From IMG/VR virus record IMGVR_UViG_3300045988_044272: 51,231 nucleotides of DNA. One strand, 5' to 3'. A model generated the notes under the pieces. It saw nothing but the letters and a program-made list of their open reading frames with translations, made no database searches and had not been told where the DNA came from. The first letter of the stretch is position 1; each line of letters starts with the position of its first letter. Position numbers and translations under genes: made by a program. This stretch comes from a virus. Below, in pieces: positions 11,992 to 42,302 of the stretch.

Positions 11992-12007
11992 GTTTTATAG
12001 TGAAACA
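11992..12007 (-). promoter_or_regulatory. 16-nt motif copy (minus strand TGTTTCACTATAAAAC), 9 nt upstream of ATG 11982
   Basis: Plus-strand gttttatagtgaaaca, with one mismatch to the consensus. Confidence 0.6.
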
Positions 12008-12014
12008 CTTTCGT

Positions 12015-15000
12015 TTATGATAAACCTTGCGACCTCAAAGAATCACCCGTTGAATTGCGTTCAAGTATGGTGATAATTCTTTCGATTCTTGCCAAATAAC
12101 GGTTGTATGCCGTGTTTTGGGCAATGGTGTTCAAGGCTTGCAATGATTGACGTAAAATTGCCGTTGATTCAAGTTGGTTGATACGGATTGCATTCATTTG
12201 TCCGGCAACAATACTTGCGGTTTCTTCTGAAACGCCCTTGACTGCTCCCGTCAATGAATCATCCGTTTCTTCAACATTCAAATCCTTAAACAAATCCTTG
12301 TAAATGCCCAAGGCTTGTTCATAATTGTTGGCGGCTGCTTGCACCTTGGCTTTGAATGCTGCAATTTCATCATCCGTCAAACCGTCAAAGATAAAATCAT
12401 CACCATTCCACCAACCCATTGAATTTTCCAATTGGTCAAGTGCGCCTTGAAGCTGTTGTTCCAAGAATTTCTTTTTCAATTGGTTTACAATCAAGTTTTG
12501 TAAAACTTGATTCACTGTTTCTTCAAAAGCCTTAGCCGAATCTTCACCAGCCTTGAAAGCGGTTGCCAAGTTATCCGCCAATTGGGTTGCAAAGTCTTTC
12601 GCATTGGTCTGTAACAAGTCATTTGAAATTTCATCGTACATATCCGCAATTTGGCGTTCCAATTCGGCATATTGTTCCTTAAATTCATCAACCCTGCCCC
12701 AATCGGTGTCCTTTTTAGAAATTTCCGCTTCCCAAGATGCACGCAAATGTTCTTGTTGTTCTTTCATGTTGCGAATTGCGGCTTGTTGGTTCTTGTACAC
12801 CTCACCGCCCAAAGCCTTGTCAATAGTCCATGAAAGTTGAGTGTAAGCCTTTTCAAGTTGTGAAATGGCTTCTTGGTGCTTCTTTATTTGCTTTTCTGCT
12901 TTTCGGTCTTTGAAGTTGAACAAATCAAATGCAGACGACAATATGCCGATTGAACCTTGAATCATAGATAAGGGATTGCCCGTTGCGATACCTGTTGCAA
13001 GTTGGCTTGCCCCATCCATAATTCCGCCAATGTCATTCATTATCGCTTGGGTTTCTTCGTCCATTGTAATGCCCATCTTTTCCAACCCGGACGTTACGGC
13101 ATCAATTGTTCCGCCCACAAGGTCAATCGCACCGCTTGCGCTTTCAAACATATTGGTCAAAGCCTTTTTCTTGCTCTCATCATCCGCCGCCTTGCCATAG
13201 TCCTTGATAGATGAAATAAGTGCTTTGAATGGGTTGCGCTCCTGAATTTCATCTTTTATTTCCCCGATTTTGTCTTTCAATGTTTCAAGGTCTTTCGGGT
13301 CAAACTCAATACCAAGATATGCACCATCAAGATTGTTGATTTTATCAATCAGCTCTTGAAGTTTCCGGGTACTTATTTCGTCAAGGTCGCCAAACATCAA
13401 TTCCCAATCCGGGTGTGCCTGTAACTCATCAAGGGCGAATTTGGAAAGGGCTTTGGCTTGCGCTTTGTTCAAGGCTTCTACCATTTCAGTATTGCCGACC
13501 GCTTGCGCTGCTTTGCGCTTTTCCTCGTATTCATCAATGATTGCTTGTTTCTTTTGTTCAAACGTGCCATATTCCGACAACATCGCATCATAATCAATAC
13601 CGCCAATGCCGTTTACATCATCGGTGTATTTGTTTTTACGGTTTTGTATTGCCGTGTCAATATTGGCACGTTCCGCGTCCGTGGTGGCTTGTTCCCTTTG
13701 CCGCATAAGCAAGGCGACATCATTGTTGAATTGTTCTTCAAGACGGCGTTTTTGCTCAACGTATGAAGCATATTCAGCCAACAACGCTTCGGTTTCTTCT
13801 TTCAACTGCTCTTGCGTGTTCTTTTCGGCTTCATCAAGGGATTCGGCTTTCGCATTGTCCACTTCCGTTCCATCATTCGCCAATTCCTTGCGTTTTTGCT
13901 CAATGATTTTGAGCATTTCAAGAACGGTGCTTGCATTGGTCAATTGTTCATTCAATTCTGTATTGAACGCTTCCAAAACCGTTGCTTTCGTTTCTTCTGC
14001 AATGGCATCATTGAGTTGCCGCAATTGCTTGTTTTGCGACTTGGTTCGATTGGCAACATCAACCGCCAAAATTTGGTCGCGTTGATTTTTCAAATAGTCA
14101 ATATATGTCGCCCCCTCTGCAAGCAACTTTTCAAACTCCTTGTGTGCTGATTGAATCAATATGGCATCACCCGAATTGACCCACTTATTGAATCGTTGAT
14201 ATTCGGTTTTATACTTGTTCAATTTTTCCAAGAATGGGTCTTTATTGGTTTGGCTTCCACCCGTGGTTGTTTTCTTGCCTGTTATTGAATCGGCTTTTTT
14301 CTGTAAATCCTCTATTTCCTTTAACTTCTTCTTGTAATCATCATTATTGGTAAGGCGTTTCAAGGCTTCTTGTTTCACTTGAATGGCTTGTTCAATAGCC
14401 CCCAATGTTCCATCCGCATACGTTTGTGAAGCATCAATTCCGGCTTGTTTCATCAAATTGAAGCCGTTAGATTCTGCTTTGGCTGCATCGGTAAATCCTT
14501 GGGTGATTTCTGTGCGCAATGCTTCAATACTTGCTTTTACCTTTGCCTTTTCTTCATTAGGAACAACATAAGTTTCTGTTGTCCAATATGCGCCCATTCC
14601 TGCACCATGTTTAATTGAACGCGTTTTGGTTACATTATCCGGCATCGCATTGTATGCTTGTTCCTTTTCCATCAAAGTTTTCACCTTTTCTTGGGCTTGT
14701 TGAACAAGAATCATTGCTTTGGCTTTTTCAATTTGCGCATTGATGAATGCTTGCTTATTATTGATAAGTAGATTTTCGGCATCTGTAACCCCATTGATTG
14801 ATACCCCCAAATCATCAAAAGCCTTTTTGTTGGCTTCAACAAATTTTTTCTTGGCTTCCATATCATCACCAAGGGCATTCCATTTTACCGATAATTCTTC
14901 AATTGATGCAATAGGCTTGTAAGCATTTTCCGCAACGGATTTATACCATTCTTCTTGTGCTTTCTTGGCTTCATTCGCTTTACCGACAAAGTGGGAAACA

Positions 15001-16400
15001 AGTGCTATCAATGCCGAAATTCCTGCAAGAATCCAACCGAATACCGGGATTGACTTAATCGCCGCACCGACCATTCGGAATGCCCCGGCAAGACCTATAT
15101 TCGCGGCTGTTCCTGCTGTTGCCGCTGCTGCTTGCGCTCCCGTTGCAGCAGTGTTTGCCCCTTGCGCCACCGTGTTTGCTCCTTGGGCGGTTGTATTTGC
15201 TTGGGTCGCTGCCGTGTGTGCGGATTCTGCCGCCGTACTTGCAATGGTCGCGGTTGTATCTGCTACCGTTGCGGCGGTTGATGCAACTTGTTCACCACGC
15301 CCGATTGCCAACAACTTGTTCCACCACTCTTTCAAGCCGTTAATGGTTACAAGTTGAAAAGCCGAATCCTTGTTTAAAGTTTGCGCCACTTGTTGCAATC
15401 CAATGGTGATTGACATCAAGGATTGAACTTTCAACATTATCTTTTGCAAATTCTCATTTTCTCCGGCAAACAATGATATTGCACCTTGGGCGGCTGTAAA
15501 TCCGCCAACAACACCTGACAATCCTTGAATCATGCCTTGAAATTGGGCTTCATCATTTGCAAGAACGCTTCCTTGTGCTTGAATATCCCCTTGAATATCC
15601 ATCAAACGCCCAAGTTCTTCTTCCAATTCCTTATAAGCGGCACTTTGTTCATCTACACCATCGGCAATCAATGACGCCATTTCTTCCTTTAGGTCACGAA
15701 TACGGGTGCGCAAAGAAACATGGGATTGTGCCGTTTTATCTGCTTGCTTGGCTACTTCTTCCAACTTGCCCGCTTCTTCTTCAAGTGCATCTGATTGTTC
15801 GCGCAATTCATTTAAAAGTTGTTGGCGAACCGTGATTTCACCTTTGATTGCGTCCGCTTGTTGCTTTAATGCCCTGTAATCATCATCACGCCCGGACACA
15901 AAAGCATCGCTTGCAGCATGGCTTAATCGGTCGTATTCATCATTTAGGCTTGCAATAACCCTTTCATGTTCTTCACAAGCCGCACCAATTTGCCCCAACA
16001 TGGCACGGATTTGGTCGAATGACATTGCACAACGCACATTGGTTGATTGTAAATTGTTCAATTCAACCGTTAATGCGGTAAGGGCTTTCTTTTCCGCATT
16101 AAGTTCTTGTTTTACCGCAATGGCTTCACTCATCAAGATTTCTTGTGTATCACCGGGTTCAATTGCATTTATCTTTGCGTCCAAATCCGAATATTTGTTT
16201 TCCAAATCCTGAACAACCTTGCGTTGGATTTCAATACATTCAACCATTTCTTGTGTGGTTCTGTCCATTACATCACCACTGCCAACAACGGCATCGGAAA
16301 AACCTTGCACCCGTCGCAAGGTTTCATCTATCGCCATATTTAGTTGGTCATTGTCCATTATGGACTTGAAAGACAATGCCCCACCGTCAATTTCTGCCAT
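12015..16400 (-). CDS. Tail tape measure protein
   Basis: 1461 aa, long coiled-coil-rich sequence with an Ala/Gly-rich hydrophobic segment (AGAFRMVGAAIKSIPVFGWILAGISALIALV). It follows the tail chaperone pair. Confidence 0.85.
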   Translation of the reverse strand: MAEIDGGALSFKSIMDNDQLNMAIDETLRRVQGFSDAVVGSGDVMDRTTQEMVECIEIQRKVVQDLENKYSDLDAKINAIEPGDTQEILMSEAIAVKQELNAEKKALTALTVELNNLQSTNVRCAMSFDQIRAMLGQIGAACEEHERVIASLNDEYDRLSHAASDAFVSGRDDDYRALKQQADAIKGEITVRQQLLNELREQSDALEEEAGKLEEVAKQADKTAQSHVSLRTRIRDLKEEMASLIADGVDEQSAAYKELEEELGRLMDIQGDIQAQGSVLANDEAQFQGMIQGLSGVVGGFTAAQGAISLFAGENENLQKIMLKVQSLMSITIGLQQVAQTLNKDSAFQLVTINGLKEWWNKLLAIGRGEQVASTAATVADTTATIASTAAESAHTAATQANTTAQGANTVAQGANTAATGAQAAAATAGTAANIGLAGAFRMVGAAIKSIPVFGWILAGISALIALVSHFVGKANEAKKAQEEWYKSVAENAYKPIASIEELSVKWNALGDDMEAKKKFVEANKKAFDDLGVSINGVTDAENLLINNKQAFINAQIEKAKAMILVQQAQEKVKTLMEKEQAYNAMPDNVTKTRSIKHGAGMGAYWTTETYVVPNEEKAKVKASIEALRTEITQGFTDAAKAESNGFNLMKQAGIDASQTYADGTLGAIEQAIQVKQEALKRLTNNDDYKKKLKEIEDLQKKADSITGKKTTTGGSQTNKDPFLEKLNKYKTEYQRFNKWVNSGDAILIQSAHKEFEKLLAEGATYIDYLKNQRDQILAVDVANRTKSQNKQLRQLNDAIAEETKATVLEAFNTELNEQLTNASTVLEMLKIIEQKRKELANDGTEVDNAKAESLDEAEKNTQEQLKEETEALLAEYASYVEQKRRLEEQFNNDVALLMRQREQATTDAERANIDTAIQNRKNKYTDDVNGIGGIDYDAMLSEYGTFEQKKQAIIDEYEEKRKAAQAVGNTEMVEALNKAQAKALSKFALDELQAHPDWELMFGDLDEISTRKLQELIDKINNLDGAYLGIEFDPKDLETLKDKIGEIKDEIQERNPFKALISSIKDYGKAADDESKKKALTNMFESASGAIDLVGGTIDAVTSGLEKMGITMDEETQAIMNDIGGIMDGASQLATGIATGNPLSMIQGSIGILSSAFDLFNFKDRKAEKQIKKHQEAISQLEKAYTQLSWTIDKALGGEVYKNQQAAIRNMKEQQEHLRASWEAEISKKDTDWGRVDEFKEQYAELERQIADMYDEISNDLLQTNAKDFATQLADNLATAFKAGEDSAKAFEETVNQVLQNLIVNQLKKKFLEQQLQGALDQLENSMGWWNGDDFIFDGLTDDEIAAFKAKVQAAANNYEQALGIYKDLFKDLNVEETDDSLTGAVKGVSEETASIVAGQMNAIRINQLESTAILRQSLQALNTIAQNTAYNRYLARIERIITILERNSTGDSLRSQGLS

Positions 16401-16401
16401 A

Positions 16402-16704
16402 TTACATCAAACTATTTACATAATTCAAAATTTGCTCACTGTTGTTTTCCGTCAATTCGATTTCTTCAACCCCGGTGTCATTGTTCATGTCATAACTTGG
16501 GGCATCAATCATCATACGTTGGACAACCGACCATGCAATGCCGTGTAACAGATAATCATAAGTCCAGCCGAAATGTTGGCATATAGCCCCCCGGCGACCG
16601 CATGGACTGTTTAGACCTCGTTGTTTTCCTCTATCCGAATCGGCATTGTGGTTCTTTCTTGCTGCATCAATCGAATAGAGTTCATAAAATCCCCAAGATT
16701 GCAC
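16402..16704 (-). CDS. Tail assembly chaperone extension (T-like, -1 frame relative to 16611..17180)
   Basis: The ORF overlaps the 3' end of the upstream chaperone by about 94 nt, in the -1 frame. It ends 1 nt before the tape measure start. The track start is a GTG. Confidence 0.5.
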   Translation of the reverse strand: MQSWGFYELYSIDAARKNHNADSDRGKQRGLNSPCGRRGAICQHFGWTYDYLLHGIAWSVVQRMMIDAPSYDMNNDTGVEEIELTENNSEQILNYVNSLM

Positions 16705-17180
16705 ATTGCATTCACAAGGACATAAAGTTTATACAAAACGGATGGTTTGATTTTACGGGCAAACAAAGAAGTCAATTCTTCAAGTCGCTTGGTATCTTCA
16801 ACCCACCGTGTACCACCTTTTCCATGTATCGGAATCAACCTATCTTCACCAAGTACGGCGATTGCAATAATCCTTGCACACCGAATCGAATGTTTATGGG
16901 CAAGCCCCCTTGCGCGTTTCATAGAATCCTCTGACTTCATCAATGATTCGTCAATGGTCAATTCGATTGTTTCGGCTGAAATTCGGTCAAGGGTTGAAAG
17001 GGTCAATTCGTCAATTTTGAACGTGCGTGTAATCTCGTGCGGTATATGTCTTTTGAAAAGCCCAAAGAACTTCTTTTTAACCTCAAAATCGGTGTCTTTG
17101 ACCTCAAATGACACACCTTTATTGATAAGGGTGTTGAGTTCCGCCCGTTCTTGTTCAAGTTTAATTTTATCGTCTGTCAT
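16611..17180 (-). CDS. Tail assembly chaperone (G-like)
   Basis: Lies between the major tail protein and the tape measure. The likely start is MTDDKIKLE at 17180 (the track starts at 17219). Confidence 0.6.
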   Translation of the reverse strand: MTDDKIKLEQERAELNTLINKGVSFEVKDTDFEVKKKFFGLFKRHIPHEITRTFKIDELTLSTLDRISAETIELTIDESLMKSEDSMKRARGLAHKHSIRCARIIAIAVLGEDRLIPIHGKGGTRWVEDTKRLEELTSLFARKIKPSVLYKLYVLVNAMCNLGDFMNSIRLMQQERTTMPIRIEENNEV

Positions 17181-17263
17181 ACACTTTATTAAAGAATGAA
17201 GCCCCCAAAGCTGAAACACTCCGGGGGCTTCGGGTTTACGTTAAGATTGCACCCCGATTTTTA

Positions 17264-17767
17264 TTAGGGTTTCTTCGGTGTTCCTTTCAAGGCTTTTCCG
17301 GCTGACACCGCCATTGGGGTAACGGTGAAATCCACAAGGAAAATTCCCTTTGCGGACATATCGGCATTGATTACCGCTTCAATATCTCCATTCGGTATAT
17401 CAAAATCCAATCCCTTTTCCGTTATTACCCGGATTGCCTTGTTTGCAACCACTTCATCGCCGTTATACCCCCAAGCTTCCTCAATTTTTTCACCACCAAC
17501 GTATGCCACAAGGTCGTCCACGTTTGCATCCATAATTGAAAATGTCAATTTAGGAATCTTGCGTGACTTCTTGCGCACTTCAGGGGCTGCCATACCCTCT
17601 TCGTAATGCTCGGTTACATCGGCGGCATCTTGGGCAATCTTGCAAGTGTCCTTATAGGTCTTGCCAATCTTGGACATTTCAATGGGCATCGTCCCATTCG
17701 GGGCGGCTGCACCGACCTTGATTTCACAAAGTCCAAGGGTGATTAAAGATGTTCTACTTTCTGCCAT
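17264..17767 (-). CDS. Major tail (tube) protein
   Basis: 167 aa, immediately upstream of the chaperone pair. A 9-bp-stem hairpin follows it (17198..17231). Confidence 0.6.
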   Translation of the reverse strand: MAESRTSLITLGLCEIKVGAAAPNGTMPIEMSKIGKTYKDTCKIAQDAADVTEHYEEGMAAPEVRKKSRKIPKLTFSIMDANVDDLVAYVGGEKIEEAWGYNGDEVVANKAIRVITEKGLDFDIPNGDIEAVINADMSAKGIFLVDFTVTPMAVSAGKALKGTPKKP

Positions 17768-17786
17768 ACTGCTATGGATTTAAAAT

Positions 17787-18191
17787 TTATTCAATTTGAA
17801 TGTTCCAATCAATGCGGATGTTGATAAAATGTTGATGGGTATTCGGTTCATACATTATCAACATATTACCCGGTATAATCATCAACCCATCAATATTCGC
17901 ATTTCTCACAAGTTCCAAGGCTTCTTCCGCCAAGGCTTTCAACCGTGTGCGATTTGCCGAAACTTGCATCTTGCCTTTGATTTTCTTGCTTGTGTCCGGG
18001 GTGTATATATTGATGTTTGACGTACCGATTTGGGGCAATGTGTCTTGCGACAAATCAATGGTATTCACAACAATATCTTCATCGGTTGAATTTTCGGGTC
18101 TGTCATCACCCACATAACAACCGCCTTTGATGGACGTTTTGCCATTAAGCAATTCAAACAAGATTCCGTCGGTGTCAAATGCTGTTTTCAT
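17787..18191 (-). CDS. Tail terminator / tail completion protein (positional)
   Basis: 134-aa ORF between the connector genes and the major tail protein. Confidence 0.4.
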   Translation of the reverse strand: MKTAFDTDGILFELLNGKTSIKGGCYVGDDRPENSTDEDIVVNTIDLSQDTLPQIGTSNINIYTPDTSKKIKGKMQVSANRTRLKALAEEALELVRNANIDGLMIIPGNMLIMYEPNTHQHFINIRIDWNIQIE

Positions 18192-19301: not shown

Positions 19302-19367
19302 AACTTACTTTCTTGCAAAAGACCTTGGGACGAAACGACCGAAATCATCGCGTCCCATCGGTCAGTG

Positions 19368-21778: not shown

Positions 21779-21824
21779 TTTCCGATAATTATAATGTTAA
21801 ACAAATCAATCACAAAAGTATTAT

Positions 21825-21840
21825 GTTTTATAGTGATACA
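21825..21840 (-). promoter_or_regulatory. 16-nt motif copy (minus strand TGTATCACTATAAAAC), 46 nt upstream of the scaffold ATG 21778
   Basis: Plus-strand gttttatagtgataca, exact. Confidence 0.6.
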
Positions 21841-21939
21841 CATAGAAATAAACTTGAACTTATGCTTTACTTATCCACATTTTTGCACTGCATTTGCATT
21901 TTTCTTGCTTAAAATAGTTGTTTTATTAAATATAACGCT

Positions 21940-21947: not shown

Positions 21948-21988
21948 CGGTGTGTTACTATAATACATAACAGATAATATTCGCAACA

Positions 21989-22264: not shown

Positions 22265-22293
22265 TGCGACTTAACTTCTAAATTTTCGTAACA

Positions 22294-22554: not shown

Positions 22555-22596
22555 CATTAACCCGGGTGGGCAACCACCCCACAAATTTTCGCAACA

Positions 22597-23325: not shown

Positions 23326-23580
23326 ATGTGTGTTACTATGAAACCAAAAGGAAATGGACTTGTGGAAATTGCCGGAGAAAGAACCGTTGAACATGGTTTT
23401 TTCTGCATCAAGTTGGTTACGTTCCTTAATGAAGAAGCCGAAATGGGAACGGAACAATATGCACAACTTTGGGAACAAAGATTTGATGAAGCCAAATCCG
23501 GGCAATGTGCTTATTCTGAGAAATGCCCGATTTATGCAAGGACAATCAAGAAAAGTGGGCTTCAATTAAAATTGTTTTAA
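23326..23580 (+). CDS. Hypothetical small protein (island gene 6)
   Basis: The track ORF 23248..23580 overlaps gene 5. The internal ATG at 23326 (MCVTMKPKG...) starts 5 nt after the gene 5 stop. Confidence 0.45.
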   Translation: MCVTMKPKGNGLVEIAGERTVEHGFFCIKLVTFLNEEAEMGTEQYAQLWEQRFDEAKSGQCAYSEKCPIYARTIKKSGLQLKLF

Positions 23581-29595: not shown

Positions 29596-29604
29596 ATTGT
29601 TATT

Positions 29605-29620
29605 GTTTTATAGTGATACA
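29605..29620 (-). promoter_or_regulatory. 16-nt motif copy, 9 nt upstream of the portal ATG 29595
   Basis: Plus-strand gttttatagtgataca, exact. It fills the terL-portal gap. Confidence 0.6.
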
Positions 29621-32752: not shown

Positions 32753-32844
32753 CTGCTTTTGAATTTAGTTTGCAATGCAAATGCAAAATTAAAGCGTGCA
32801 TTATAGTAATGCACGCTTTAACAAAAAAAGTTAGGCACAACTTA

Positions 32845-35781: not shown

Positions 35782-35790
35782 TGTTTTTGA

Positions 35791-36120
35791 TTATTTGGTT
35801 TTGTTATATTCTTCTTCAACACGTTGTAAGACATATTCAAGTGGGCGTTCTTTTATGAACCGTTCCTTTTCTTCGTTTGTCAAAGATTGACATTGCTTGA
35901 CATATGTTCTTGCGTGGGCTTCCATGACTTCCGGCAATGTAGCCTTACTCCAACAATGTTCGCATAAGGAGAATGTGCCGAATGAATCACTTAGCTCAAT
36001 GGATTTGGGCTTGCATACTGACCAAGGCAAACTGCAAATTTCGCAAGTTCCAAAAGACGGATAAAGTATTTGATACGCCCTTACTACAAATGGCAATCTT
36101 TTTATTCTTTCAATTTCCAT
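35791..36120 (-). CDS. Hypothetical Cys-rich protein
   Basis: 109 aa with CEIC...C...CEHC. A copy of the 16-nt motif lies 9 nt upstream of its ATG. Confidence 0.5.
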   Translation of the reverse strand: MEIERIKRLPFVVRAYQILYPSFGTCEICSLPWSVCKPKSIELSDSFGTFSLCEHCWSKATLPEVMEAHARTYVKQCQSLTNEEKERFIKERPLEYVLQRVEEEYNKTK

Positions 36121-36129
36121 ACTGTTTTT

Positions 36130-36145
36130 GTTTTATAGTGATACA
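36130..36145 (-). promoter_or_regulatory. 16-nt motif copy, 9 nt upstream of ATG 36120
   Basis: Plus-strand gttttatagtgataca, exact. Confidence 0.6.
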
Positions 36146-36152
36146 AATAATT

Positions 36153-37220
36153 CTAAATTTTTGATAGCCAATACTCCCATATTCGGCTTGCGATTTGTGC
36201 CATCATCACGGGTGGCACCGACATTCCACAAACATAATGCGGTGGTTGCCCGGCAAAGTTGTAATCTTGCGGGAATGATGAAATGCAACACACTTCACTT
36301 TGCCCCAAGAACCGGGGTTGCTCAAAATGAATCAAGCAAGATTCTTTGCTTGCAAGGGTGGGGCAAATTCTATCCAAGTACACATAAGTTTGATTAAAAT
36401 TGCTTCCTTTGCCGAATAACCTTTCATTTGCCGCACCTTGGTTCAAATCACCTTTTTGGCGGTTATCCCATAGCAAACGTATTGTTTTGCTCTTTGCTTC
36501 ACGACCTTTGAAGTCTGCAACCTCACCAAACATTATCGGCTTTTCGTTAAAGTCTAAATTCAAAGCCGGAACAACATCGAACAAGCCTTGCGAAACAAGG
36601 AAAGGCGCGGCAATATCTTTACGCAAGCACACGAAAAATACACGTTCACGGCGTTGGGGAACACCCATTTTTTGTGCATCAAGCAACCAATGTTGGCAAT
36701 AATACCCGGCATCCTCGAAACCATCATAAATGCGCCTTACATAGTTCTTGGCTTCACCAAGTAGCAATCCTTTTACATTTTCCGCAACAACCACTTTGGG
36801 CTGTAACCTCTTTGCAAGGTCTATGAAATCGAAAAACAACGTGTCCAACACTTGTTCCGCCTGCCCCTCACGAAAATGTTTCATCTTACCCCAAGCATCT
36901 TCACGGCTTCCAGCTATTGAAAAGGTAGAACAAGGGGGCGAACCGTCCAAAATATCAAGATTGAACAATTCGGGTGGCAAATCATTTTTTTCTTTGAACG
37001 TCTGTATCGGTTCAAGGAAAGGGAAACGCGGATTGTGATTTTGGCAATAGGTGTACATCATACGGTGGTCTATCTCATTGCACCCTATCACATCAAACCC
37101 GGCAAGTTTGTAACCCATAGAACTGCCCCCCCCACACGCAAAACAAGAAAATACCTTGCCTTTGTCCTTGGTGAAGTCGGCACCTTTCAACGTCCAACGG
37201 TAATCATATTTGTGCATCAT
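36153..37220 (-). CDS. dcm: DNA (cytosine-5)-methyltransferase, no cognate endonuclease
   Basis: Motif I FSCFACGGGSS, motif IV GSPPCSTFS, ENV motif VVAENVKG, and QRRERVFF. Contains a G8 coding-strand tract at 37126..37133. Confidence 0.9.
   Translation of the reverse strand: MMHKYDYRWTLKGADFTKDKGKVFSCFACGGGSSMGYKLAGFDVIGCNEIDHRMMYTYCQNHNPRFPFLEPIQTFKEKNDLPPELFNLDILDGSPPCSTFSIAGSREDAWGKMKHFREGQAEQVLDTLFFDFIDLAKRLQPKVVVAENVKGLLLGEAKNYVRRIYDGFEDAGYYCQHWLLDAQKMGVPQRRERVFFVCLRKDIAAPFLVSQGLFDVVPALNLDFNEKPIMFGEVADFKGREAKSKTIRLLWDNRQKGDLNQGAANERLFGKGSNFNQTYVYLDRICPTLASKESCLIHFEQPRFLGQSEVCCISSFPQDYNFAGQPPHYVCGMSVPPVMMAQIASRIWEYWLSKI
37126..37133. repeat. C8 homopolymer (G8 on the coding strand) inside the C5-methyltransferase gene
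   Basis: ctgccccccccaca read directly. It encodes the GGG of motif I (tgt ggg ggg ggc). Confidence 0.9.
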
Positions 37221-37810
37221 TTAATTGTTTTATTTAATATATTGTTTACTCTCGTTGCTATTTCTCTGAATTGTGGATTGTACTTGAAATCATCTTGATA
37301 CTTCTTCAGCAAATGAAGCATGGTTGAATGGTCGCGGTGTACGTATTCGGCAATCTTTGTAAGTTTCATTTTGTGCATCCGGCAATGGTACACGAAAATC
37401 ATTCTTGCAAAGAACCCGTCACGCTTTCTTGATTTTGTTATGTATTCATTGAATTTCAAGCCCGTTACTTCGTGAATGGCATTTTGTATCTGCAACACAA
37501 AAAGATTGTTACGAACTACATTGGATTCAAACCAAATATCCTTACCCATCCTTATTGCTATATCATATTCAATTGAAGCCCCGGTTGAATCCACCCAATT
37601 ATCCATCATATAGATTGCATCGCAAGACAAAAGCATTTCAATGTCCTTGCATAAGTGTTCATTCCAAGAAGTATCTTTGTCAAGACCATTTTTCAAGGGG
37701 TTGGCAACCTCAAATCCAAGTTCGGTCAATAAATCTTCCGCACCACTGAACCGTTCTTGCACTTCATCATAAGGCAAACCGCTTATCTTTCCTGATATGT
37801 ATATTCTCAT
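37217..37810 (-). CDS. Fusion protein: DUF4406 (nucleoside 2-deoxyribosyltransferase-like) N-domain plus DnaA domain IV-like HTH C-domain
   Basis: N-terminal MRIYISGKISGLP...CDAIYMMDNWVDSTGASIEYDIA is DUF4406-like. C-terminal SRKRDGFFARMIFVYHCR...IAEYVHRDHSTMLHLLKK parallels DnaA ...RSVARPRQMAMALAKE...RDHTTVLHACRK. Confidence 0.65.
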   Translation of the reverse strand: MRIYISGKISGLPYDEVQERFSGAEDLLTELGFEVANPLKNGLDKDTSWNEHLCKDIEMLLSCDAIYMMDNWVDSTGASIEYDIAIRMGKDIWFESNVVRNNLFVLQIQNAIHEVTGLKFNEYITKSRKRDGFFARMIFVYHCRMHKMKLTKIAEYVHRDHSTMLHLLKKYQDDFKYNPQFREIATRVNNILNKTIK

Positions 37811-38604
37811 GGCTGCAAGTTCTTTTGGTTGTTGTGCAAAAACTTATTCACAAAGTACACTTGCCCTTTGCCCGTTACCTTGGTCGTGTTGGATATAAGG
37901 GTGTCGCCGTTAGGTTTCTGAATGGTCGTTTTCTTAATCTCGAACAACCCAAGTTCCATCGCCTTTTGTGTCGGCTGATTGTACCTTTCACCGTGTTGGC
38001 ACAAGTAGCCATTTTCACGCATCCAAGCGAAAAGCCTTTTTTCTCCCGTATTCACTCCATTTTGGCAAATGATTTTTGCAAGTTCTCCAATCAAGACCGA
38101 TTCATTGGAAGTTTCAACGGCTTGTGAGAATAAAACACGTGGGGCGTCGGCTTCAATCTTCTTTTGTTGTTGCTCGATTTGTTCAGCCTGTGAAGCTGCA
38201 AGGCGCAATGCTTCGGCAAAAGATTGTGGTATTGCCGGGGTGGTGGGGGCTTGTTGTACTTGCCTGACAACCCTTTCCATTGCATTGAATTGTTCAATAA
38301 AGCCGACCTTGAATTGCATAGCCTTTGCCCCGGTCAAACCCATAGCAAGCAAAGAAAAGCCGTCACGGTTCATTATGAACATCGGGCGTGGCTTACCTTG
38401 TGCATCAAGATATGTTGATTCATAGAACCAATGGCGGTGGGCTGAATTTTCAGCCGACCCCAAAATGTTGCGAACCGCTTGCATTATATTCTTATGCTGC
38501 TTTCCGAACACTTGTGCCACTTTTAGGGAATCCGTTACGGGCGTTCCCTTTTCTGTCTTATAGACCACGTTTTGTTGAATGATAATACTGTTCATTGTTA
38601 TCAT
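37807..38604 (-). CDS. Rha-family regulator / antirepressor (KilAC-like C-terminus)
   Basis: The N-terminus TDSLKVAQVFGKQHKNIMQAVRNI is typical of phage pRha. The C-terminus LIGELAKIICQNGVNTGEKRLFAWMRENGYL is typical of KilAC/ANT. Confidence 0.75.
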   Translation of the reverse strand: MITMNSIIIQQNVVYKTEKGTPVTDSLKVAQVFGKQHKNIMQAVRNILGSAENSAHRHWFYESTYLDAQGKPRPMFIMNRDGFSLLAMGLTGAKAMQFKVGFIEQFNAMERVVRQVQQAPTTPAIPQSFAEALRLAASQAEQIEQQQKKIEADAPRVLFSQAVETSNESVLIGELAKIICQNGVNTGEKRLFAWMRENGYLCQHGERYNQPTQKAMELGLFEIKKTTIQKPNGDTLISNTTKVTGKGQVYFVNKFLHNNQKNLQP

Positions 38605-38620
38605 AGAATTTGTTAGTTAA

Positions 38621-38797
38621 TTATTCCGCATCATCATCAAAAAATTCTCGGTTCTCGTCCATAAATGCTTCAAATGCTTCATCGCAATATACACCCTCAC
38701 ACAATGAATCAAATTGATGGTCGATTTCACCGTTTTTCCAAGGGCAAAATGCACATAGTTCATCGCCCAATTGCTTTTTTAATTCTGAATCTTCCAT
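38621..38797 (-). CDS. Hypothetical acidic Cys-containing protein
   Basis: The likely start is MEDSELKK at 38797, 5 nt past the upstream stop (the track start is 38881). Confidence 0.4.
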   Translation of the reverse strand: MEDSELKKQLGDELCAFCPWKNGEIDHQFDSLCEGVYCDEAFEAFMDENREFFDDDAE

Positions 38798-38801
38798 TTG
38801 A

Positions 38802-39551
38802 TTATAATTTTCTTCTGTCCTTTCCTTTGATTTCAAAGTAATTACACATTTCCACCAACCGACTTGCCACACGGTCGCCATAACGGTTCATTAATACATC
38901 ACCTTGCATCTTCATGTTGGAAGTTATCAAAGTCATTTCATCGCATTTGTCGCCCCGGTATTCGATAAGCTGCCGGACTACATCAATACGATTACCCATG
39001 TACAAGTTTTCTTGTGGTTCTTGCCCGAAATCCTGAATGCCAAGCATCGGTTGTTTTTTGAATATCTGGAAATTGCCATTCTCAACGAAGTAGTCACACA
39101 AAGCATCTGCACGAATAATCCGCCACCATAGGGGGCGTGGTTGTGAATCATCTTGCCAAAGAACTTTGAAGCCGAAAGCCGTGCAATATGCTTGCATTAT
39201 TTCCAAACACCATGATTTGCCCGACCCTGTATTTCCGGCAATGTATATTCCACGCTTCAATCGCCCCGGTATCACTTGCCCTGTATTGGGGTCAAGGCAT
39301 TTCATTGACGGGTCGCAATGCGCCCATTTGATGAAGTTTTCGTAAGTGAATCGGTTTTCATCATCAATTACGAATTTCGGGTTTCGGCTTTTGCCAATCG
39401 CTTCAACAATCTTCAATGCTTCATTTACATCATAGTGAATGTATTGGTAGCGTTGGAAGCCCGCAAATAATCCACGCTGATTGATTGCATGAAGTATTTG
39501 TTCAATACTTGGCATCTGAATCTTTTTGTTATTTCCGTCTTTTACTTCCAT
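38802..39551 (-). CDS. DnaC/IstB-like AAA ATPase (replicative helicase loader-like)
   Basis: Walker A GIYIAGNTGSGKSW. LITSN-type segment MTLITSNM. Adjacent to the replisome organizer gene. Confidence 0.6.
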   Translation of the reverse strand: MEVKDGNNKKIQMPSIEQILHAINQRGLFAGFQRYQYIHYDVNEALKIVEAIGKSRNPKFVIDDENRFTYENFIKWAHCDPSMKCLDPNTGQVIPGRLKRGIYIAGNTGSGKSWCLEIMQAYCTAFGFKVLWQDDSQPRPLWWRIIRADALCDYFVENGNFQIFKKQPMLGIQDFGQEPQENLYMGNRIDVVRQLIEYRGDKCDEMTLITSNMKMQGDVLMNRYGDRVASRLVEMCNYFEIKGKDRRKL

Positions 39552-40237
39552 TCGTCATTCACTTTTGTTGTTGTCTTGTTGCCTGAATATGCCGACCGCC
39601 TTTCTTTTTCTCCTTTTGCCCAATTGCGAATGGCGGCTTTCCAATCTTTCATCTTGTTTTTACCGACAAACCAACCTTTGCTTTCGTAGAAGTCGAAAAA
39701 CCTTTCAGCATCGAAAGAATATCCCTTTTCAAGAATATAAGCCCTTATTTCTTCAATTGTGGGCGGTAAAAAGCGGTGTCCGCTTTTCTCTTTTATATTC
39801 TCTTTATTATCTTCTTTTCTTTCCTTTTCTTTTCTTTCCTTTGCATCATTTTGCAATGCACTTGCATCGGCTTTGCATTGCTCTTGCTTATCCTTACTTG
39901 ATTGCCAACGCTTTATGGCTGCTGCTTTTCGCTTTTCCGCTATGTCCGCACGTTTACCAAGGCGTGTTATTACTGACTTTGACCAAAACTTTTCACCATC
40001 ATTAGTGAACAAATCAAAGTCATTCACGACACTTTCAACCATTGCTACATCAACGTGCAATGCAAATGCAATACTTTTGCACGATTTCAAAGGCAAATGC
40101 CCCCCTTGTTCGTATAATTGTTCTACAACGCACCAAAAGACACCTAACCCCGCCGCCCCGTGCTCAATCAAAACATCTTGCAACTTTGGGTCGGTTCGTG
40201 CATTGTAATCATGTTGAAAATAGAATGTATCTTTCAT
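39542..40237 (-). CDS. Phage replisome organizer / replication initiation protein (DUF4373-like N-terminus)
   Basis: MKDTFYFQHDYNARTDPKLQDVLIEHGAAGLGVFWCVVEQLY matches the DUF4373 pattern. Confidence 0.6.
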   Translation of the reverse strand: MKDTFYFQHDYNARTDPKLQDVLIEHGAAGLGVFWCVVEQLYEQGGHLPLKSCKSIAFALHVDVAMVESVVNDFDLFTNDGEKFWSKSVITRLGKRADIAEKRKAAAIKRWQSSKDKQEQCKADASALQNDAKERKEKERKEDNKENIKEKSGHRFLPPTIEEIRAYILEKGYSFDAERFFDFYESKGWFVGKNKMKDWKAAIRNWAKGEKERRSAYSGNKTTTKVNDEWK

Positions 40238-41016
40238 CTTACAACGTGTTTTTGTGATTCACCAATGCCAAACAATGCAAAGTCATATTTACATGGGTCT
40301 GTGGGGTCGAAAACCGCCAAATTTCGCGTCAATTCTTCAACCGTCTTGCGGTCATTACTTTTGCGTGTAATCAACCCCAATTCGCGCCCGATTCGGGCAA
40401 CATGGACATCAAGGGGCATCATCAGCTTGTCGGGTGTCAATTCGTGCCAAATACCTAAATCAACAATACCATCTTGACGACACAACCAACGCAACATCAG
40501 GTTCAAGCGTTTGCAAGCCGAACCGCCTTTGTGTGAATTGCCTTGCGGATTGGGAAAATGCTTTGAATAACTGCCGTTTGCATCTTTGAATATTTCACGC
40601 AACTTGGTGAATCCCGCCCATACGTCAAAACCTCGTTCTTTGAAGAAATATTCCAAAGTGTCATAAGTTCCCGTAATCCAATATGCAAGTTGCAACCCAC
40701 TACACATATACGCCAAATCCCGCCCAAAGAATGTGCGGTGGATATTGCAATTCGGGTCTATATGCTTCCACCCATCTTGCATCACAAAGTCATAAGGTTT
40801 GCCATCCATAATGTCAAACAACATCTTTTGGCAACCTGTCATTATCTGTTTCCTATTACCCCAAGCGATTGTTGAAGCAAGGAACGCGGCAATTTCAATG
40901 TCTTGTTGGGATTTGCCCAAGAAACAACGTGGAAACAACACCGGGTCATTATCCATGAATGCCGTTGTGTTATATCTTGCCACAAGGGATTCCAATGTTA
41001 TCTTCAAATCATTCAT
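40234..41016 (-). CDS. TIGR02757 (DUF2400) family protein
   Basis: DNDPVLFPRCF...DIEIAAFLASTIAWGNRKQI...GKPYDFVM matches my recollection of the family signature. The start was chosen at MNDLK (41016), which is preceded by a hairpin and atatcgcaacaATG. Confidence 0.55.
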   Translation of the reverse strand: MNDLKITLESLVARYNTTAFMDNDPVLFPRCFLGKSQQDIEIAAFLASTIAWGNRKQIMTGCQKMLFDIMDGKPYDFVMQDGWKHIDPNCNIHRTFFGRDLAYMCSGLQLAYWITGTYDTLEYFFKERGFDVWAGFTKLREIFKDANGSYSKHFPNPQGNSHKGGSACKRLNLMLRWLCRQDGIVDLGIWHELTPDKLMMPLDVHVARIGRELGLITRKSNDRKTVEELTRNLAVFDPTDPCKYDFALFGIGESQKHVVR

Positions 41017-41070
41017 TGTTGCGATATTTAAGCCCCCGACCCGGCACAAAGTCAAGCCGGGGGCACTCTG

Positions 41071-41820
41071 TTAAACCTCAATGATTGCGATTTCCGGCGC
41101 AATCTCCCTTATTTGCTTCAATTGTTCATCAATCACCTTGTCGCGCAAATCTTCAAGTGTGGCTTGCGCACCGGGTGAAAGAAGTACGAACGCAACTTCA
41201 CGTCCATTTACTTGTGCAAATGTTTCAACCTCTATTGTTTCGGGTTGCATACCCTTGAAAATGGGCATTTGAATTGTGAATGATTCGGGCAAATTGGAAT
41301 TGACCACTTGTGCAAAATTATCCGTTCGATTACCATTTTCTTTCACGGCACGGTCAATCTTGTTGTTCACATCGGCGGTAAAGTTCATCAGGCATGAAAC
41401 CAATTTCATGTTTTCGGAACGGTCGGCAAAGAATGCCCGATTCATCTTGATAAACATTCCAAGTTCCGTCGGTGTCCAAATCTTACCGCCATTTATTCCG
41501 AACTCAACAAATTTGGGGTTGTAGCCCAATTTGCCGACTATTTCACCACGTTTGTATTCATCCGCTTCATTGATTATCAAAGTGATTTCAATATTTTCAC
41601 GGTTTACAAGAATATGGCAATCCTTTTGGGCAAATTGTCCTGTGTTGATTCTCTTTGTTAGATATTCAACGACTGCACCAATTACACCGTTCAATTTGGT
41701 TTTGACGGGTGCTTTGGGGTCAAGTTCCTTTGGTGCTACACCCTCACGCAACACTAATTCAGCTTTTGCCATTCCGGGGGCAAAGTTGATTTGTAATTTC
41801 TCATTCTGCATATTATTCAA
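41071..41820 (-). CDS. Hypothetical protein
   Basis: 249-aa ORF in the early operon; no motif recognised. Confidence 0.55.
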   Translation of the reverse strand: MNNMQNEKLQINFAPGMAKAELVLREGVAPKELDPKAPVKTKLNGVIGAVVEYLTKRINTGQFAQKDCHILVNRENIEITLIINEADEYKRGEIVGKLGYNPKFVEFGINGGKIWTPTELGMFIKMNRAFFADRSENMKLVSCLMNFTADVNNKIDRAVKENGNRTDNFAQVVNSNLPESFTIQMPIFKGMQPETIEVETFAQVNGREVAFVLLSPGAQATLEDLRDKVIDEQLKQIREIAPEIAIIEV

Positions 41821-41831
41821 TTTTTAAATGG

Positions 41832-42278
41832 TTAATCATTAGTTCCTGTTTTCCTTTCGGTGTTCATTCGTATTCCTTGAAAGATGGTTGGTTGAAGTTC
41901 ATCCGCTGTTGCTGGTCTGCATTCAATCAAATCACCCTCATCATTGTAAAACCCAGTTTCCTTTCTGTCTTGGTCTGTAAATCTGTAACATACTTCCGTC
42001 ACATATTCAGCCTTTGACTTGATATTTGAAACCATATTTGTTCTTGCTTCTTTCAATGGTTTCAATCTGCCTTTATATTCGGCTTGTGATTGCTTCATTT
42101 CCGCTTCGATTTCGGCGATTTCGATTGAAACATTGGCAAGTTTTTCTTTATGCCCTTGCAGTTCTTCCGGGCTGTATGGTTTCATGTACCCTTTGTTTTC
42201 AACGCCATCGCAATTGTCTTTCAAAAATGCGATACGTTGCATCTTGTTTTCGTATTCTTTTCCAAGCGTCTTATCCAT
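41832..42278 (-). CDS. Hypothetical coiled-coil protein
   Basis: 148-aa ORF. A copy of the 16-nt motif lies 8 nt upstream of its ATG. Confidence 0.5.
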   Translation of the reverse strand: MDKTLGKEYENKMQRIAFLKDNCDGVENKGYMKPYSPEELQGHKEKLANVSIEIAEIEAEMKQSQAEYKGRLKPLKEARTNMVSNIKSKAEYVTEVCYRFTDQDRKETGFYNDEGDLIECRPATADELQPTIFQGIRMNTERKTGTND

Positions 42279-42286
42279 AATATTTC

Positions 42287-42302
42287 GTTTTATAGTGATA
42301 CA
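42287..42302 (-). promoter_or_regulatory. 16-nt motif copy, 8 nt upstream of ATG 42278 and 5 nt downstream of the DGR target 2 stop
   Basis: Plus-strand gttttatagtgataca, exact. Confidence 0.6.

What the first reader, a model, noticed from the sequence alone, without database searches (positions are those of the whole stretch)
11992..42302. Conserved 16-nt motif TGTATCACTATAAAAC fills short intergenic gaps 8-9 nt upstream of start codons
The minus-strand sequence TGTATCACTATAAAAC (plus strand gttttatagtgataca) occurs exactly at 21825, 29605, 36130 and 42287. A one-mismatch copy occurs at 11992.

In four of the five copies the motif ends 8-9 nt before the ATG and occupies most of a 25-32 nt gap between co-directional genes. 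The genes concerned are the 169-aa gene after the tape measure, the portal, the Cys-rich ORF at 36120, and the ORF at 42278. The fifth copy lies 46 nt upstream of the scaffold gene, at the head of the capsid operon.

Weaker relatives exist:
- 42940..42955 (ggtgataca), upstream of DGR target 2.
- 21951..21966, on the plus strand upstream of the plus-strand island.
- An inverted copy at 5883..5898.

The motif does not match the Bacteroidota TTTG / TAnnTTTG promoter consensus. It could be a phage-specific (middle or late) promoter giving near-leaderless transcripts. It could also be a binding site for one of the phage regulators (LuxR-type, Rha, DnaA-domain protein), or an RNA processing or translation-initiation element.
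Basis: seen in the sequence. Interest (0 to 1): 0.6.

Follow-up and report, generated by a model that had tools for sequence, protein, structure and literature searches.

The report
Dispersed 17-bp regulator site in phage
The repeated 16-letter motif is real and is the core of a 17-base two-fold-symmetric protein-docking site that a whole family of gut and oral Bacteroidales temperate phages keeps on their late-gene promoters and, in one fixed direction, in the tiny gaps just before several start codons; it most likely lets one phage regulator control the virus-building genes, but which protein binds and whether it switches genes on or off is not yet shown.

Summary
TGTATCACTATAAAAC occurs as reported: four exact copies and one copy with one mismatch, all in intergenic DNA.

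It is the core of a 17-bp dyad, (G)TGTnTnA-CTA-TnAnACA(C). The window has about 10 sites. All 24 related complete phage genomes tested have 3-10 sites. In the closest host-type genome the sites lie only on the prophage contigs.

The sites fall into two classes:
- **Class 1** lies 1-9 nt upstream of a host-type TAnnTTTG -7 box, in either orientation. It marks the terminase, scaffold/capsid, tail-fibre and accessory-island promoters. Porphyromonas gingivalis phage005b has this class only, as perfect palindromes.
- **Class 2** lies 7-8 nt before an ATG in a 25-32-nt gap. It has no -7 box, is always in one orientation, is less self-complementary and does not fold as RNA.

The LuxR-type and Rha proteins are absent from relatives that keep the motif. 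The CI repressor varies between relatives and has different operators.

Best reading: a DNA site for a family-conserved phage regulator. Candidates are a 96-aa XRE-type HTH protein and a DUF3853 protein. Class 1 would act as an operator on late promoters and class 2 as stoperator-like copies.

Rival readings are a P1 Lpa-like activator site and a self-contained near-leaderless promoter. No transcript data could be obtained.

This scan had already noted a similar palindrome, CGTAT-N7-ATACG, in a related phage.

The parts
42286..42302 (-). Class 2 site TGTATCACTATAAAACG. It fills the 29-nt gap between the second DGR target gene (42308-42928) and the 148-aa phrog_12688 gene (41832-42278). The ATG is 7 nt after the 17-mer.
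36129..36145 (-). Class 2 site TGTATCACTATAAAACA, in the 32-nt gap between the C5 methyltransferase and the Cys-rich ORF 35791-36120. A mosaic breakpoint with relatives abuts it.
29604..29620 (-). Class 2 site TGTATCACTATAAAACA. It fills the 25-nt TerL-portal gap, with the TAA stop directly abutting it and the ATG 8 nt after. It is conserved in this gap across the family.
11991..12007 (-). Class 2 site TGTTTCACTATAAAACA, in the 32-nt gap between the tape measure gene and the 169-aa gene.
23329..23345 (+). Class 2-like site TGTGTTACTATGAAACC in a 32-nt gap of the plus-strand island, 8 nt before the ATG at 23354.
   Evidence: the same 16-mer occurs in G021 and G022
21824..21840 (-). Class 1 site at the scaffold/capsid promoter, followed after 3 nt by the -7 box TACTTTTG (21813-21820).
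21813..21820 (-). Host-type -7 promoter box TACTTTTG of the scaffold/capsid operon.
   Evidence: the TAnnTTTG consensus is taken from PMC7366714
21951..21967 (+). Class 1 site TGTGTTACTATAATACA facing the plus-strand accessory island, 126 bp from the scaffold-promoter site. The variable island begins right after it.
   Evidence: spacing across relatives
32791..32819 (-). Class 1 site TGCATTACTATAATGCA (32797-32813), forming the top of a hairpin with 13-bp arms (-16.4 kcal/mol). It probably terminates the early/middle operon and overlaps the -7 box TAATTTTG (32784-32791) of the 185-aa / ParB-like / TerS / TerL operon.
5883..5899 (+). Class 1 site at the tail-fibre/DGR/lysis-end promoter. It is read in the inverted (TAG) sense towards gene 5571-5846, with the -7 box TAAATTTG at 5866-5873 on the minus strand.
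   Evidence: homologous sites in phage005b, G004, G009, G010
49398..49688 (+). Candidate binder 1: a 96-aa protein in the CI-to-integrase operon. AF2 pLDDT is 84 and the fold is XRE/Cro-CI-type HTH. It is present in every related record that is not cut at that end.
46644..46928 (-). Candidate binder 2: a 94-aa DUF3853 protein of the early lytic operon. By eye its C-terminal part looks like an excisionase-type HTH (no significant domain match was obtained). It is present in 26 of 26 related records.

Best explanation
The motif is the asymmetric core of a 17-bp (19 bp with flanks) dyad-symmetric DNA site, (G)TGTnTnA-CTA-TnAnACA(C). I read it as the binding site of a dimeric DNA-binding regulator that this whole family of temperate Bacteroidales siphoviruses encodes.

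**Shown.**
- The site is specific to the phage and conserved across the family.
- It comes in two classes.
- Class 1 occupies the stretch between the -33 position and a host-type TAnnTTTG -7 box. It does so at the terminase, scaffold/capsid, tail-fibre and accessory-island promoters, in either orientation and with a variable 1-9-nt offset.
- Class 2 is the bare 17-mer in minimal gaps, 7-8 nt before an ATG. Its A-rich perfect half-site always faces the start codon.

**Inferred.**
- The bound protein occludes RNA polymerase at the late and island promoters, so class 1 is an operator.
- At class 2 sites it acts as a transcription roadblock between gene modules. This resembles the operator-plus-stoperator network of mycobacteriophage L5.
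- The class 2 asymmetry (C6, C8, A4 in the distal half) would be a compromise. It keeps the contacted bases while avoiding an mRNA hairpin and keeping an A-rich leader at the start codon.

**Candidate binders.** The most plausible is the 96-aa XRE-type HTH protein encoded between CI and the integrase. The DUF3853 protein is the alternative. LuxR, Rha and CI are excluded as the universal binder.
For: **Reality and specificity.**
- There are 8 matches against 0.54 expected.
- All sites lie in the 4.9% of the window that is intergenic.
- All 24 related genomes carry sites, against 0-1 for the reversed control.
- G001 has 9 sites, all on its two prophage contigs and none elsewhere in 2.8 Mb.

**Dyad symmetry.**
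- P. gingivalis phage005b and G018 carry perfect palindromes, TGTTTTA(A/T)AT(A/T)TAAAACA and TGTTTTATNATAAAACA.
- The positions conserved in both classes include all the mirror-image ones: T1 G2 T3 T5 A7 / T11 A13 A15 C16 A17.

**Class 1.**
- TAnnTTTG lies at +3 in 26 of 52 contexts and at +5 in 19 of 36. It follows 0 of 77 class 2 contexts.
- The same three promoters carry the site from phage005b to the window.
- Orientation flips between relatives at the same promoter, and the offset varies from 1 to 9 nt. This fits occlusion better than a stereospecific activator contact.
- The divergent pair of sites lies 125-127 bp apart in the window and 12 of the related genomes, and 146-147 bp apart in 2. 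The difference is two helical turns.

**Class 2.**
- 77 distinct contexts lie 5-12 nt before an ATG (about 74 of them in the main 6-11-nt cluster). They sit in front of roughly 12 or more different gene families, all in one orientation, against 1 in the other.
- Median RNA folding energy is -0.1 kcal/mol, against -3.0 for class 1.
- Positions 4 and 14 are complementary in 18 of 52 distinct sites, against 12 expected.

**Binder.**
- GerE and Rha HMMs are absent from G014, G018 and phage005b.
- CI (HTH_3, 48406-48777) varies between relatives. Its likely operators, ACGGA-N5-TCCGT, are different.
- Only two weak partial matches to the 17-mer (at least 9 of the 10 symmetric positions), and no full site, occur in 116 kb of lysogeny-module loci.
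- P0002 is conserved and folds as an XRE HTH. Its top matches are C.BclI, ImmR, SinR and P22 c2.

**Precedent.** L5 has operators in promoters and orientation-locked stoperators in short intergenic spaces (PMC9283540).
Against: - No binding or transcript data exist.
- The sign of control is not shown. In well-studied phages late genes are under positive control (PMC10695390), and P1 Lpa binds an inverted repeat in its late promoters.
- A symmetric dimer gives no obvious reason for a polar roadblock. The orientation lock is explained here only by an mRNA-level argument that was not tested.
- The centre CTA is conserved yet asymmetric, also in class 1, and this is unexplained.
- Unlike L5, the site is absent from the early/immunity promoter and does not vary with the immunity repressor.
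- The fold matches of P0002 are weak (E 0.2-2, TM about 0.5).
- Nothing links P0002 rather than the DUF3853 protein, or an unrecognised protein, to the site.
- The TerL-portal copy has been lost in some relatives, so single copies are dispensable.
Confidence: 0.45

Rival explanations
1. Positive control. The 17-mer is the docking site of a late-gene activator, as the inverted repeat in phage P1 late promoters is for Lpa. The activator would replace -33 recognition and switch on the terminase, capsid, tail and island promoters. Class 2 copies would then be auxiliary sites, for example reloading or reservoir sites or weak internal promoters.
For: - Class 1 sites occupy the place of the missing -33 element in front of perfect -7 boxes.
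- The DUF3853 HTH protein of the early operon is present in 26 of 26 relatives.
- An earlier scan report on a related phage reached this reading (e1-3457407).
Against: - The offset to the -7 box varies from 1 to 9 nt and orientation flips. This is awkward for a stereospecific contact with polymerase.
- Class 2 copies have no -7 box at all (0 of 77), so an activator has nothing to activate there.
- A separate DnaA-box-like element about 39 nt upstream, together with a conserved DnaA-domain protein, already offers a candidate activator site.
Confidence: 0.25
2. The motif is a self-contained, direction-specific promoter read by host polymerase carrying an unidentified phage factor. Transcripts would start a few bases after it and carry leaders of only 2-5 nt.
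For: - The orientation lock is strict, and the spacing to the ATG is tight at 7-8 nt in roughly 12 or more unrelated gene contexts.
- CTATAA(A/T) resembles a TATAAT-type or T4-late-type (TATAAATA) -10 element. This comparison is from my own knowledge.
- The near-identity of the copies is typical of phage-specific promoters.
Against: - No phage RNA polymerase or sigma factor was found.
- The only sigma-like HTH (GerE) is missing from relatives that keep the motif.
- Class 1 copies work in either orientation and are followed by ordinary -7 boxes.
- The conserved positions are the mirror-symmetric ones.
- 5' UTRs shorter than 10 nt are rare in Bacteroides, at about 3.7% (PMC7366714).
Confidence: 0.12
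3. The motif is a parS-like site. It would be bound by the host ParB, or by the phage's ParB/Srx-domain protein, for DNA organisation or KorB-like long-range silencing.
For: - The left half TGT(A/T)TCAC equals the canonical parS half-site (my own knowledge).
- G001 carries the parS variant TGTATCACATGAAACA. It matches the motif at 15 of 16 positions once a one-base insertion is allowed.
- A ParB-like gene lies in the operon directly downstream of a class 1 site in all relatives.
Against: - The site is 17 bp, not 16 bp.
- The ancestral-looking palindromes (TGTTTTAA...) lack the CAC/GTG centre.
- The 183-aa phage protein shows no HTH by Pfam, and its AF2 model was unusable at pLDDT 50.
Confidence: 0.05
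4. The motif is an RNA-level element: a processing site, translational operator or enhancer in the polycistronic mRNA.
For: The distance to the start codon is fixed, and the leader is A-rich and unstructured.
Against: - Class 1 copies lie upstream of their promoters' -7 boxes and occur in both orientations.
- Class 2 copies do not fold.
- There is no pairing covariation at positions 4 and 14.
- There is no Rfam match.
Confidence: 0.04
5. The motif's main role is as a conserved boundary sequence that promotes module exchange between related phages.
For: - Mosaic breakpoints with relatives fall at 21967 and at 36112-36147, right next to 17-mers.
- The ORF next to one site (35791-36120) is unique to this phage.
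- The phage encodes RecT.
Against: - 17 bp is very short for recombination.
- The TerL-portal copy shows no breakpoint.
- Any conserved regulatory site next to variable cargo would produce the same picture.
- This reading does not explain the -7-box association or the dyad.
Confidence: 0.04

Closest known systems
Operators and stoperators of Cluster A mycobacteriophages (L5 gp71, TipsytheTRex repressor; PMC9283540, PMC6550527)
   Same: - One short sequence recurs across the phage genome.
- It occurs both inside promoters and in short intergenic spaces between co-directional genes.
- The intergenic copies are strictly oriented with transcription.
   Different: - L5 sites are 13-bp asymmetric sequences bound by a monomer with two DNA-binding domains, in more than 20 copies. 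They include the early lytic promoter and co-vary with immunity.
- Here the site is a 17-bp dyad in about 10 copies.
- It is absent from the immunity region.
- It stays constant while CI varies.
- It sits on late promoters of the Bacteroidota -7-box type.
- Function was not tested here.
Phage P1 late promoters with the Lpa-binding inverted repeat (PMC10695390; Lehnherr et al. 1992, from my own knowledge)
   Same: - A conserved inverted repeat stands in place of the upstream promoter element, in front of a host-type downstream box.
- It is repeated at all late operons of a temperate phage.
   Different: - P1's repeat is 9 bp, lies at a fixed position, and is an activator site.
- Here the offset is 1-9 nt and orientation is free.
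- About half of the copies have no promoter box at all.
- No Lpa homologue was found among the window proteins scanned against Pfam and PHROGs; no dedicated Lpa search was run.
17-bp operators of Cro/CI-type (XRE) repressors of lambdoid phages, and C-boxes of restriction-modification controller proteins
   Same: - The site is a 14-19-bp dyad with TGT...ACA-type arms.
- The candidate binder P0002 has the XRE fold. Its top structural matches are C.BclI, ImmR, SinR and P22 c2.
   Different: - Those operators cluster at one or two control regions.
- Here the sites are scattered over 40 kb and are distinct from the CI operators.
Earlier scan note e1-3457407: a 17-bp palindrome CGTAT-N7-ATACG in a gut/oral Bacteroidales phage family
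   Same: - It is also a 17-bp intergenic palindrome with (C/T)GTAT...ATAC(G/A) arms at late promoters.
- Variants beginning CGTAT or CGTGT occur in relatives G012, G014 and G019.
   Different: - That note did not describe the orientation-locked copies next to start codons, as far as its summary shows.
- It is an unchecked AI note.

Membership tests
L5-type operator/stoperator network | The same site occurs in promoters and in short intergenic spaces, and the intergenic copies are oriented with transcription. | tested here: met
   Class 1 sites lie at four promoters. Class 2 sites lie in 25-32-nt gaps. The orientation count is 74 to 1.
L5-type operator/stoperator network | The site is an asymmetric sequence bound by a monomeric repressor. 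| tested here: not met
   The site is a 17-bp dyad, and it is a perfect palindrome in phage005b and G018. Binding stoichiometry cannot be tested with these tools.
L5-type operator/stoperator network | The site is also the operator of the early lytic promoter and belongs to the immunity repressor. | tested here: not met
   There is no 17-mer in the immunity region of the window, and only two weak partial matches in 116 kb of relatives' lysogeny modules. CI varies while the site stays constant.
L5-type operator/stoperator network | The bound protein stops elongating RNA polymerase. | not testable with these tools
   This needs reporter or transcript assays.
P1 Lpa-type late promoter | An inverted repeat replaces the upstream element in front of a host-type downstream promoter box at the late operons. 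| tested here: met
   A 17-mer followed by TAnnTTTG is found at the terminase, capsid and tail promoters in 8 genomes.
P1 Lpa-type late promoter | The geometry is fixed and a phage activator (an Lpa homologue) is required. | tested here: inconclusive
   The offset is 1-9 nt and orientation flips. No Lpa-like protein was recognised. Activation itself cannot be tested here.
Bacteroidota sigma-A promoter (TTTG at -33, TAnnTTTG at -7) | The motif itself matches the consensus. | tested here: not met
   There is no TAnnTTTG within the 17-mer on either strand. 0 of 77 class 2 contexts have one downstream.
Single-subunit (T7/SP6-type) RNA polymerase promoter | The phage encodes a single-subunit RNA polymerase. 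| tested here: not met
   The shared CACTATA core is a resemblance only. The large proteins are the tape measure, a tail protein, an SbcC-like ATPase and a MuF/ADP-ribosyltransferase head protein.
parS centromere site | A 16-bp palindrome TGTTNCACGTGNAACA bound by a ParB protein that has an HTH. | tested here: inconclusive
   The left half matches. The site is 17 bp, with ATAAAACA on the right. No HTH was detected in the phage ParB-like protein, and its model was unusable.

The most novel reading that the evidence does not exclude
A second regulator, independent of the immunity repressor (the XRE-type 96-aa protein or the DUF3853 protein), silences or times the whole morphogenetic half of a widespread family of Bacteroidales temperate phages, including an active P. 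gingivalis prophage. It would act through one dyad site used in two ways: as an operator inside host-type late promoters, and as orientation-locked stoperator-like roadblocks placed 8 nt before start codons. That would be the first stoperator-type network outside actinobacteriophages, and it would be built on a dimer site rather than a monomer site.
Probability: 0.3. Interest if true: 0.65.

Novelty: new variant of a known kind. Interest (0 to 1): 0.5.

Why it matters
Gene control in temperate phages of gut and oral Bacteroidales is essentially undescribed. I found no mention of this motif in the papers on P. gingivalis phages, Quimbyvirus or LoVEphage, and no hit for the sequence in full-text search.

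One 17-bp site marks all the late promoters and several module boundaries in a family that includes an active prophage of the periodontal pathogen P. gingivalis. That gives a concrete handle on these phages:
- It predicts where late transcription starts.
- It offers a short list of candidate regulators to test.
- It could be used to build inducible or silenced phage constructs in Bacteroides.

If the gap copies are roadblocks, stoperator-style silencing would extend beyond mycobacteriophages.

Tried and rejected
- **Rfam.** No match in the window.
- **Megablast against named phages.** No match. A protein search gave P. gingivalis phage005a/b as the closest named relatives, at 66% portal identity.
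- **T7/SP6-type promoter idea (shared CACTATA).** Rejected. No single-subunit RNA polymerase is present, and the 910-aa protein is a MuF-type head protein with an ADP-ribosyltransferase-like part.
- **The 185-aa gene after the terminase-operon site as a sigma-like factor.** Rejected. It has C-terminal membrane helices.
- **LuxR and Rha as binders.** Rejected by co-occurrence.
- **CI as binder.** Rejected. It is variable and has different operators.
- **RNA hairpin.** Rejected for class 2.
- **ParB-like protein fold.** The AF2 model was too poor to use, at pLDDT 50. PDB sequence searches for the three candidates found nothing.
- **Bacteroides PM2 near-palindromic promoter motif (PMC7366714).** Its sequence is not given in the held text or supplements, so no comparison was possible.
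- **Absence of P0002 from 5 of 26 records.** All five records are cut within about 2 kb of where the gene would lie, so this absence says nothing.


Full report
**1.

TGTATCACTATAAAAC occurs exactly at 21825, 29605, 36130 and 42287 on the minus strand, and with one mismatch at 11992. At up to three mismatches there are 8 matches against 0.54 expected, and none of 100 shuffles reaches 8. Only 4.9% of the window is intergenic, yet every site lies there.

**2. What the window is**

The window holds a complete prophage of about 51 kb, bounded by a 20-nt direct repeat at 41-60 and 51173-51192.

- The plus-strand lysogeny module comprises an HTH_3 CI-like gene at 48406-48777, a 96-aa HTH protein and the integrase.
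- A long minus-strand array carries early recombination and replication genes, methyltransferases, TerS, TerL, the portal, a MuF-like head protein, capsid, tail, DGR and lysis genes.
- A plus-strand accessory island interrupts this array.
- No RNA polymerase or sigma factor was found.
- The closest named relatives are Porphyromonas gingivalis phages 005a/b, at 66% portal identity and with the same gene order.

**3. The motif is family-wide and specific to the phage**

- In 80 related viral loci the TerL-portal gap keeps (T)GT(A/T)TCACTATAA(A/T)AC 8-12 nt before the ATG. This holds down to about 65% portal identity while the flanks diverge. A few lineages have lost this copy.
- All 24 related, mostly complete genomes carry 3-10 sites each. 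The reversed control pattern gives 0-1.
- The nearest bacterial genome, G001 (2.8 Mb), has 9 sites. All lie on its two prophage contigs.
- The motif persists in relatives of 40-50% G+C.

**4. It is a 17-bp dyad**

Relatives show TGTATTACTATAATACA, TGTGTTACTATAACACA and TGTCTTACTATAAGACA. Phage005b and G018 carry perfect palindromes: TGTTTTA(A/T)AT(A/T)TAAAACA and TGTTTTATNATAAAACA.

The positions conserved in all classes include every mirror-image one (T1 G2 T3 T5 A7 / T11 A13 A15 C16 A17), often with G and C flanks. Positions 4 and 14 vary freely and are complementary no more often than chance predicts: 18 of 52 distinct sites against 12 expected. This pattern fits recognition by a protein dimer rather than a nucleic-acid hairpin. 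The centre CTA is conserved but asymmetric, and I cannot explain that.

Rescoring the window as a dyad adds three sites: 32797-32813, 23329-23345 and a weak one at 3901-3917. It also raises 21951 and 5883 to full-strength sites.

**5. Two classes of site**

I collected 563 distinct site contexts from the window, 7 complete relatives and 80 loci.

*Class 1 (ATG 30-60 nt away).*
- A host-type TAnnTTTG box follows at +3 in 26 of 52 contexts in one orientation, and at +5 in 19 of 36 in the other.
- These are the same promoters in every genome from phage005b to the window. One precedes the operon that runs into the ParB-like, TerS and TerL genes. One precedes the scaffold/capsid operon. One precedes the small gene that heads the tail-fibre end. 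One faces the accessory island.
- At a given promoter the orientation of the centre flips between relatives, and the offset to the -7 box ranges from 1 to 9 nt.
- In the window the boxes are TACTTTTG at 21813-21820, TAATTTTG at 32784-32791 and TAAATTTG at 5866-5873.
- The copy at the terminase operon is the top of a hairpin with 13-bp arms (-16.4 kcal/mol). Its flanks change in a compensatory way between relatives (GCG/CGC against GGG/CCC). It probably also terminates the upstream operon.
- The two divergent sites between the scaffold gene and the island lie 125-127 bp apart in the window and 12 of the related genomes, 146-147 bp apart in two and 133 bp apart in one. The main difference equals two helical turns.

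*Class 2 (ATG 5-12 nt after the 17-mer, mostly 7-8).*
- None of 77 contexts has a TAnnTTTG box.
- The contexts precede at least a dozen unrelated gene families, including the portal, an exonuclease, phrog_12688, the gene after the tape measure, a methyltransferase, SbcC and island genes.
- All have the same orientation. One context has the opposite orientation.
- They are less self-complementary than class 1: median fold energy -0.1 against -3.0 kcal/mol, and C at position 6 in 70% against 38%.
- Phage005b and G018 have no class 2 sites. Class 1 therefore looks ancestral and class 2 derived.

**6. Who binds?**

*Candidates excluded.*
- The GerE/LuxR and Rha domains are absent from G014 (complete, with class 2 sites), G018 and phage005b, by tblastn and by HMM.
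- CI is poorly conserved. The palindromes next to it (ACGGAATAATCCGT at 48324-48338 and CACGGAAAAATCCGTG at 48357-48371) are unrelated to the 17-mer. Only two weak partial matches to the 17-mer occur in 116 kb of lysogeny-module loci.

*DNA-binding proteins conserved throughout the family.*
- **The 96-aa protein between CI and the integrase.** Its AF2 model has pLDDT 84. Every top structural match is an XRE/Cro-CI HTH, although the scores are weak. It is missing only from records truncated at that end.
- **The DUF3853 protein.** It is present in 26 of 26 records.
- **A DUF4406-Bac_DnaA_C fusion.** It scores 47 bits. This one matches a second element better: a DnaA-box-like TGTGGATAA about 39 nt upstream of class 1 sites. 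That element scores 7 or more of 9 positions in 12 of 20 promoters, against 16% of background windows.

*The parS resemblance.* The left half of the motif equals a parS half-site. A parS variant in G001 differs from the motif by one base and one insertion. This is noted but remains unsupported. The phage ParB-like protein shows no HTH, and its model failed.

**7. How it most likely works**

*Shown.* This is a phage-specific, family-conserved dyad. It sits on the late and island promoters and, in a fixed orientation, in minimal gaps before start codons.

*Inferred.* One regulator binds all the sites. I favour negative control for two reasons:
- Free orientation and a 1-9-nt offset fit occlusion of polymerase better than a stereospecific activating contact.
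- Sites without any promoter make sense as roadblocks.

This is the logic of L5 operators and stoperators, which also combine promoter sites with orientation-locked sites in short intergenic spaces (PMC9283540).

The class 2 asymmetry can be read as a compromise with the mRNA. The A-rich perfect half stays next to the AUG. The distal half is altered at uncontacted positions, so that no hairpin forms over the initiation region.

*The main rival is positive control.* All 11 late promoters of P1 carry an inverted repeat that binds the activator Lpa, and late genes of well-studied phages are positively controlled (PMC10695390). An earlier scan note on a related phage (CGTAT-N7-ATACG) took that view.

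Very short leaders are rare in Bacteroides (PMC7366714), no dedicated polymerase factor exists, and the conserved positions are the symmetric ones.

**8. Novelty**

The motif string gave no relevant full-text hit. The papers on this phage family and its neighbours do not mention promoters or motifs.

The kind is known: dispersed binding sites of a phage regulator. The new elements are the two-class architecture on Bacteroidota -7-box promoters, the dyad nature of the stoperator-like copies and their independence from the immunity repressor. Nothing functional has been shown, so the interest is moderate.

Noticed in passing
window 21871-21879 (-) and 5902-5909 (+); gene 37217-37810 (-): A DnaA-box-like element (TGTGGATAA, perfect at 21871-21879) lies about 39 nt upstream of class 1 17-mers in most relatives. 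It scores 7 or more of 9 positions in 12 of 20 promoters, against 16% of background windows. The phage encodes a DUF4406-Bac_DnaA_C fusion (47 bits) that is conserved in all relatives. This makes a candidate pair of late-promoter activator and binding site.
   Followed up: partly
window 32770-32786, 21883-21899, 39851-39867, 40055-40071: TTGCAATGCAAATGCAA-type repeats occur at two late promoters and twice inside the replication-initiator gene 39542-40237. They look like iterons of an origin that are re-used at late promoters. The overall count is only weakly above chance (14 against 7.1 at 3 mismatches), but the best copies are the ones at these places.
   Followed up: partly
window 48406-48777 (+), 48324-48338, 48357-48371: The true gene here is a plus-strand HTH_3 CI-like repressor (123 aa), not the minus-strand ORF 48448-48720. 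Two palindromes, ACGGAATAATCCGT and CACGGAAAAATCCGTG, in the divergent region are its likely operators.
   Followed up: partly
window 41-60 and 51173-51192: An exact 20-nt direct repeat, GAAATAAGTACACGAATTTG, lies at both ends of the window. These are the likely attL/attR cores, so the window holds the whole prophage.
   Followed up: no
window 32791-32819 (-): The 17-mer at the terminase-operon promoter is embedded in a hairpin with 13-bp arms. Its flanks change in a compensatory way between relatives (AAAGCG/CGCTTT here, AAAGGG/CCCTT in G004 and G009). This looks like a terminator that overlaps the next promoter's -7 box.
   Followed up: partly
window 21967 and 36112-36147; ORF 35791-36120: Nucleotide similarity to relatives breaks off exactly at the end of the 21951-21967 site, where the variable island starts, and next to the 36129-36145 site. 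The Cys-rich ORF 35791-36120 has no homologue in seven relatives.
   Followed up: partly
G001:C50:43372-43387 and G001:C49:11179-11194: The host-type genome has a canonical parS (TGTTCCACGTGAAACA) and a variant, TGTATCACATGAAACA. The variant's left half is identical to the left half of the phage motif.
   Followed up: partly
window 21977-21988, 22282-22293, 22585-22596 (+), 47160-47180 (-): Several small genes are preceded by TTTCG(C/T)AACA directly before the ATG, sometimes after a GC-rich hairpin. This is already the subject of another first-stage note (e1-3671130).
   Followed up: no
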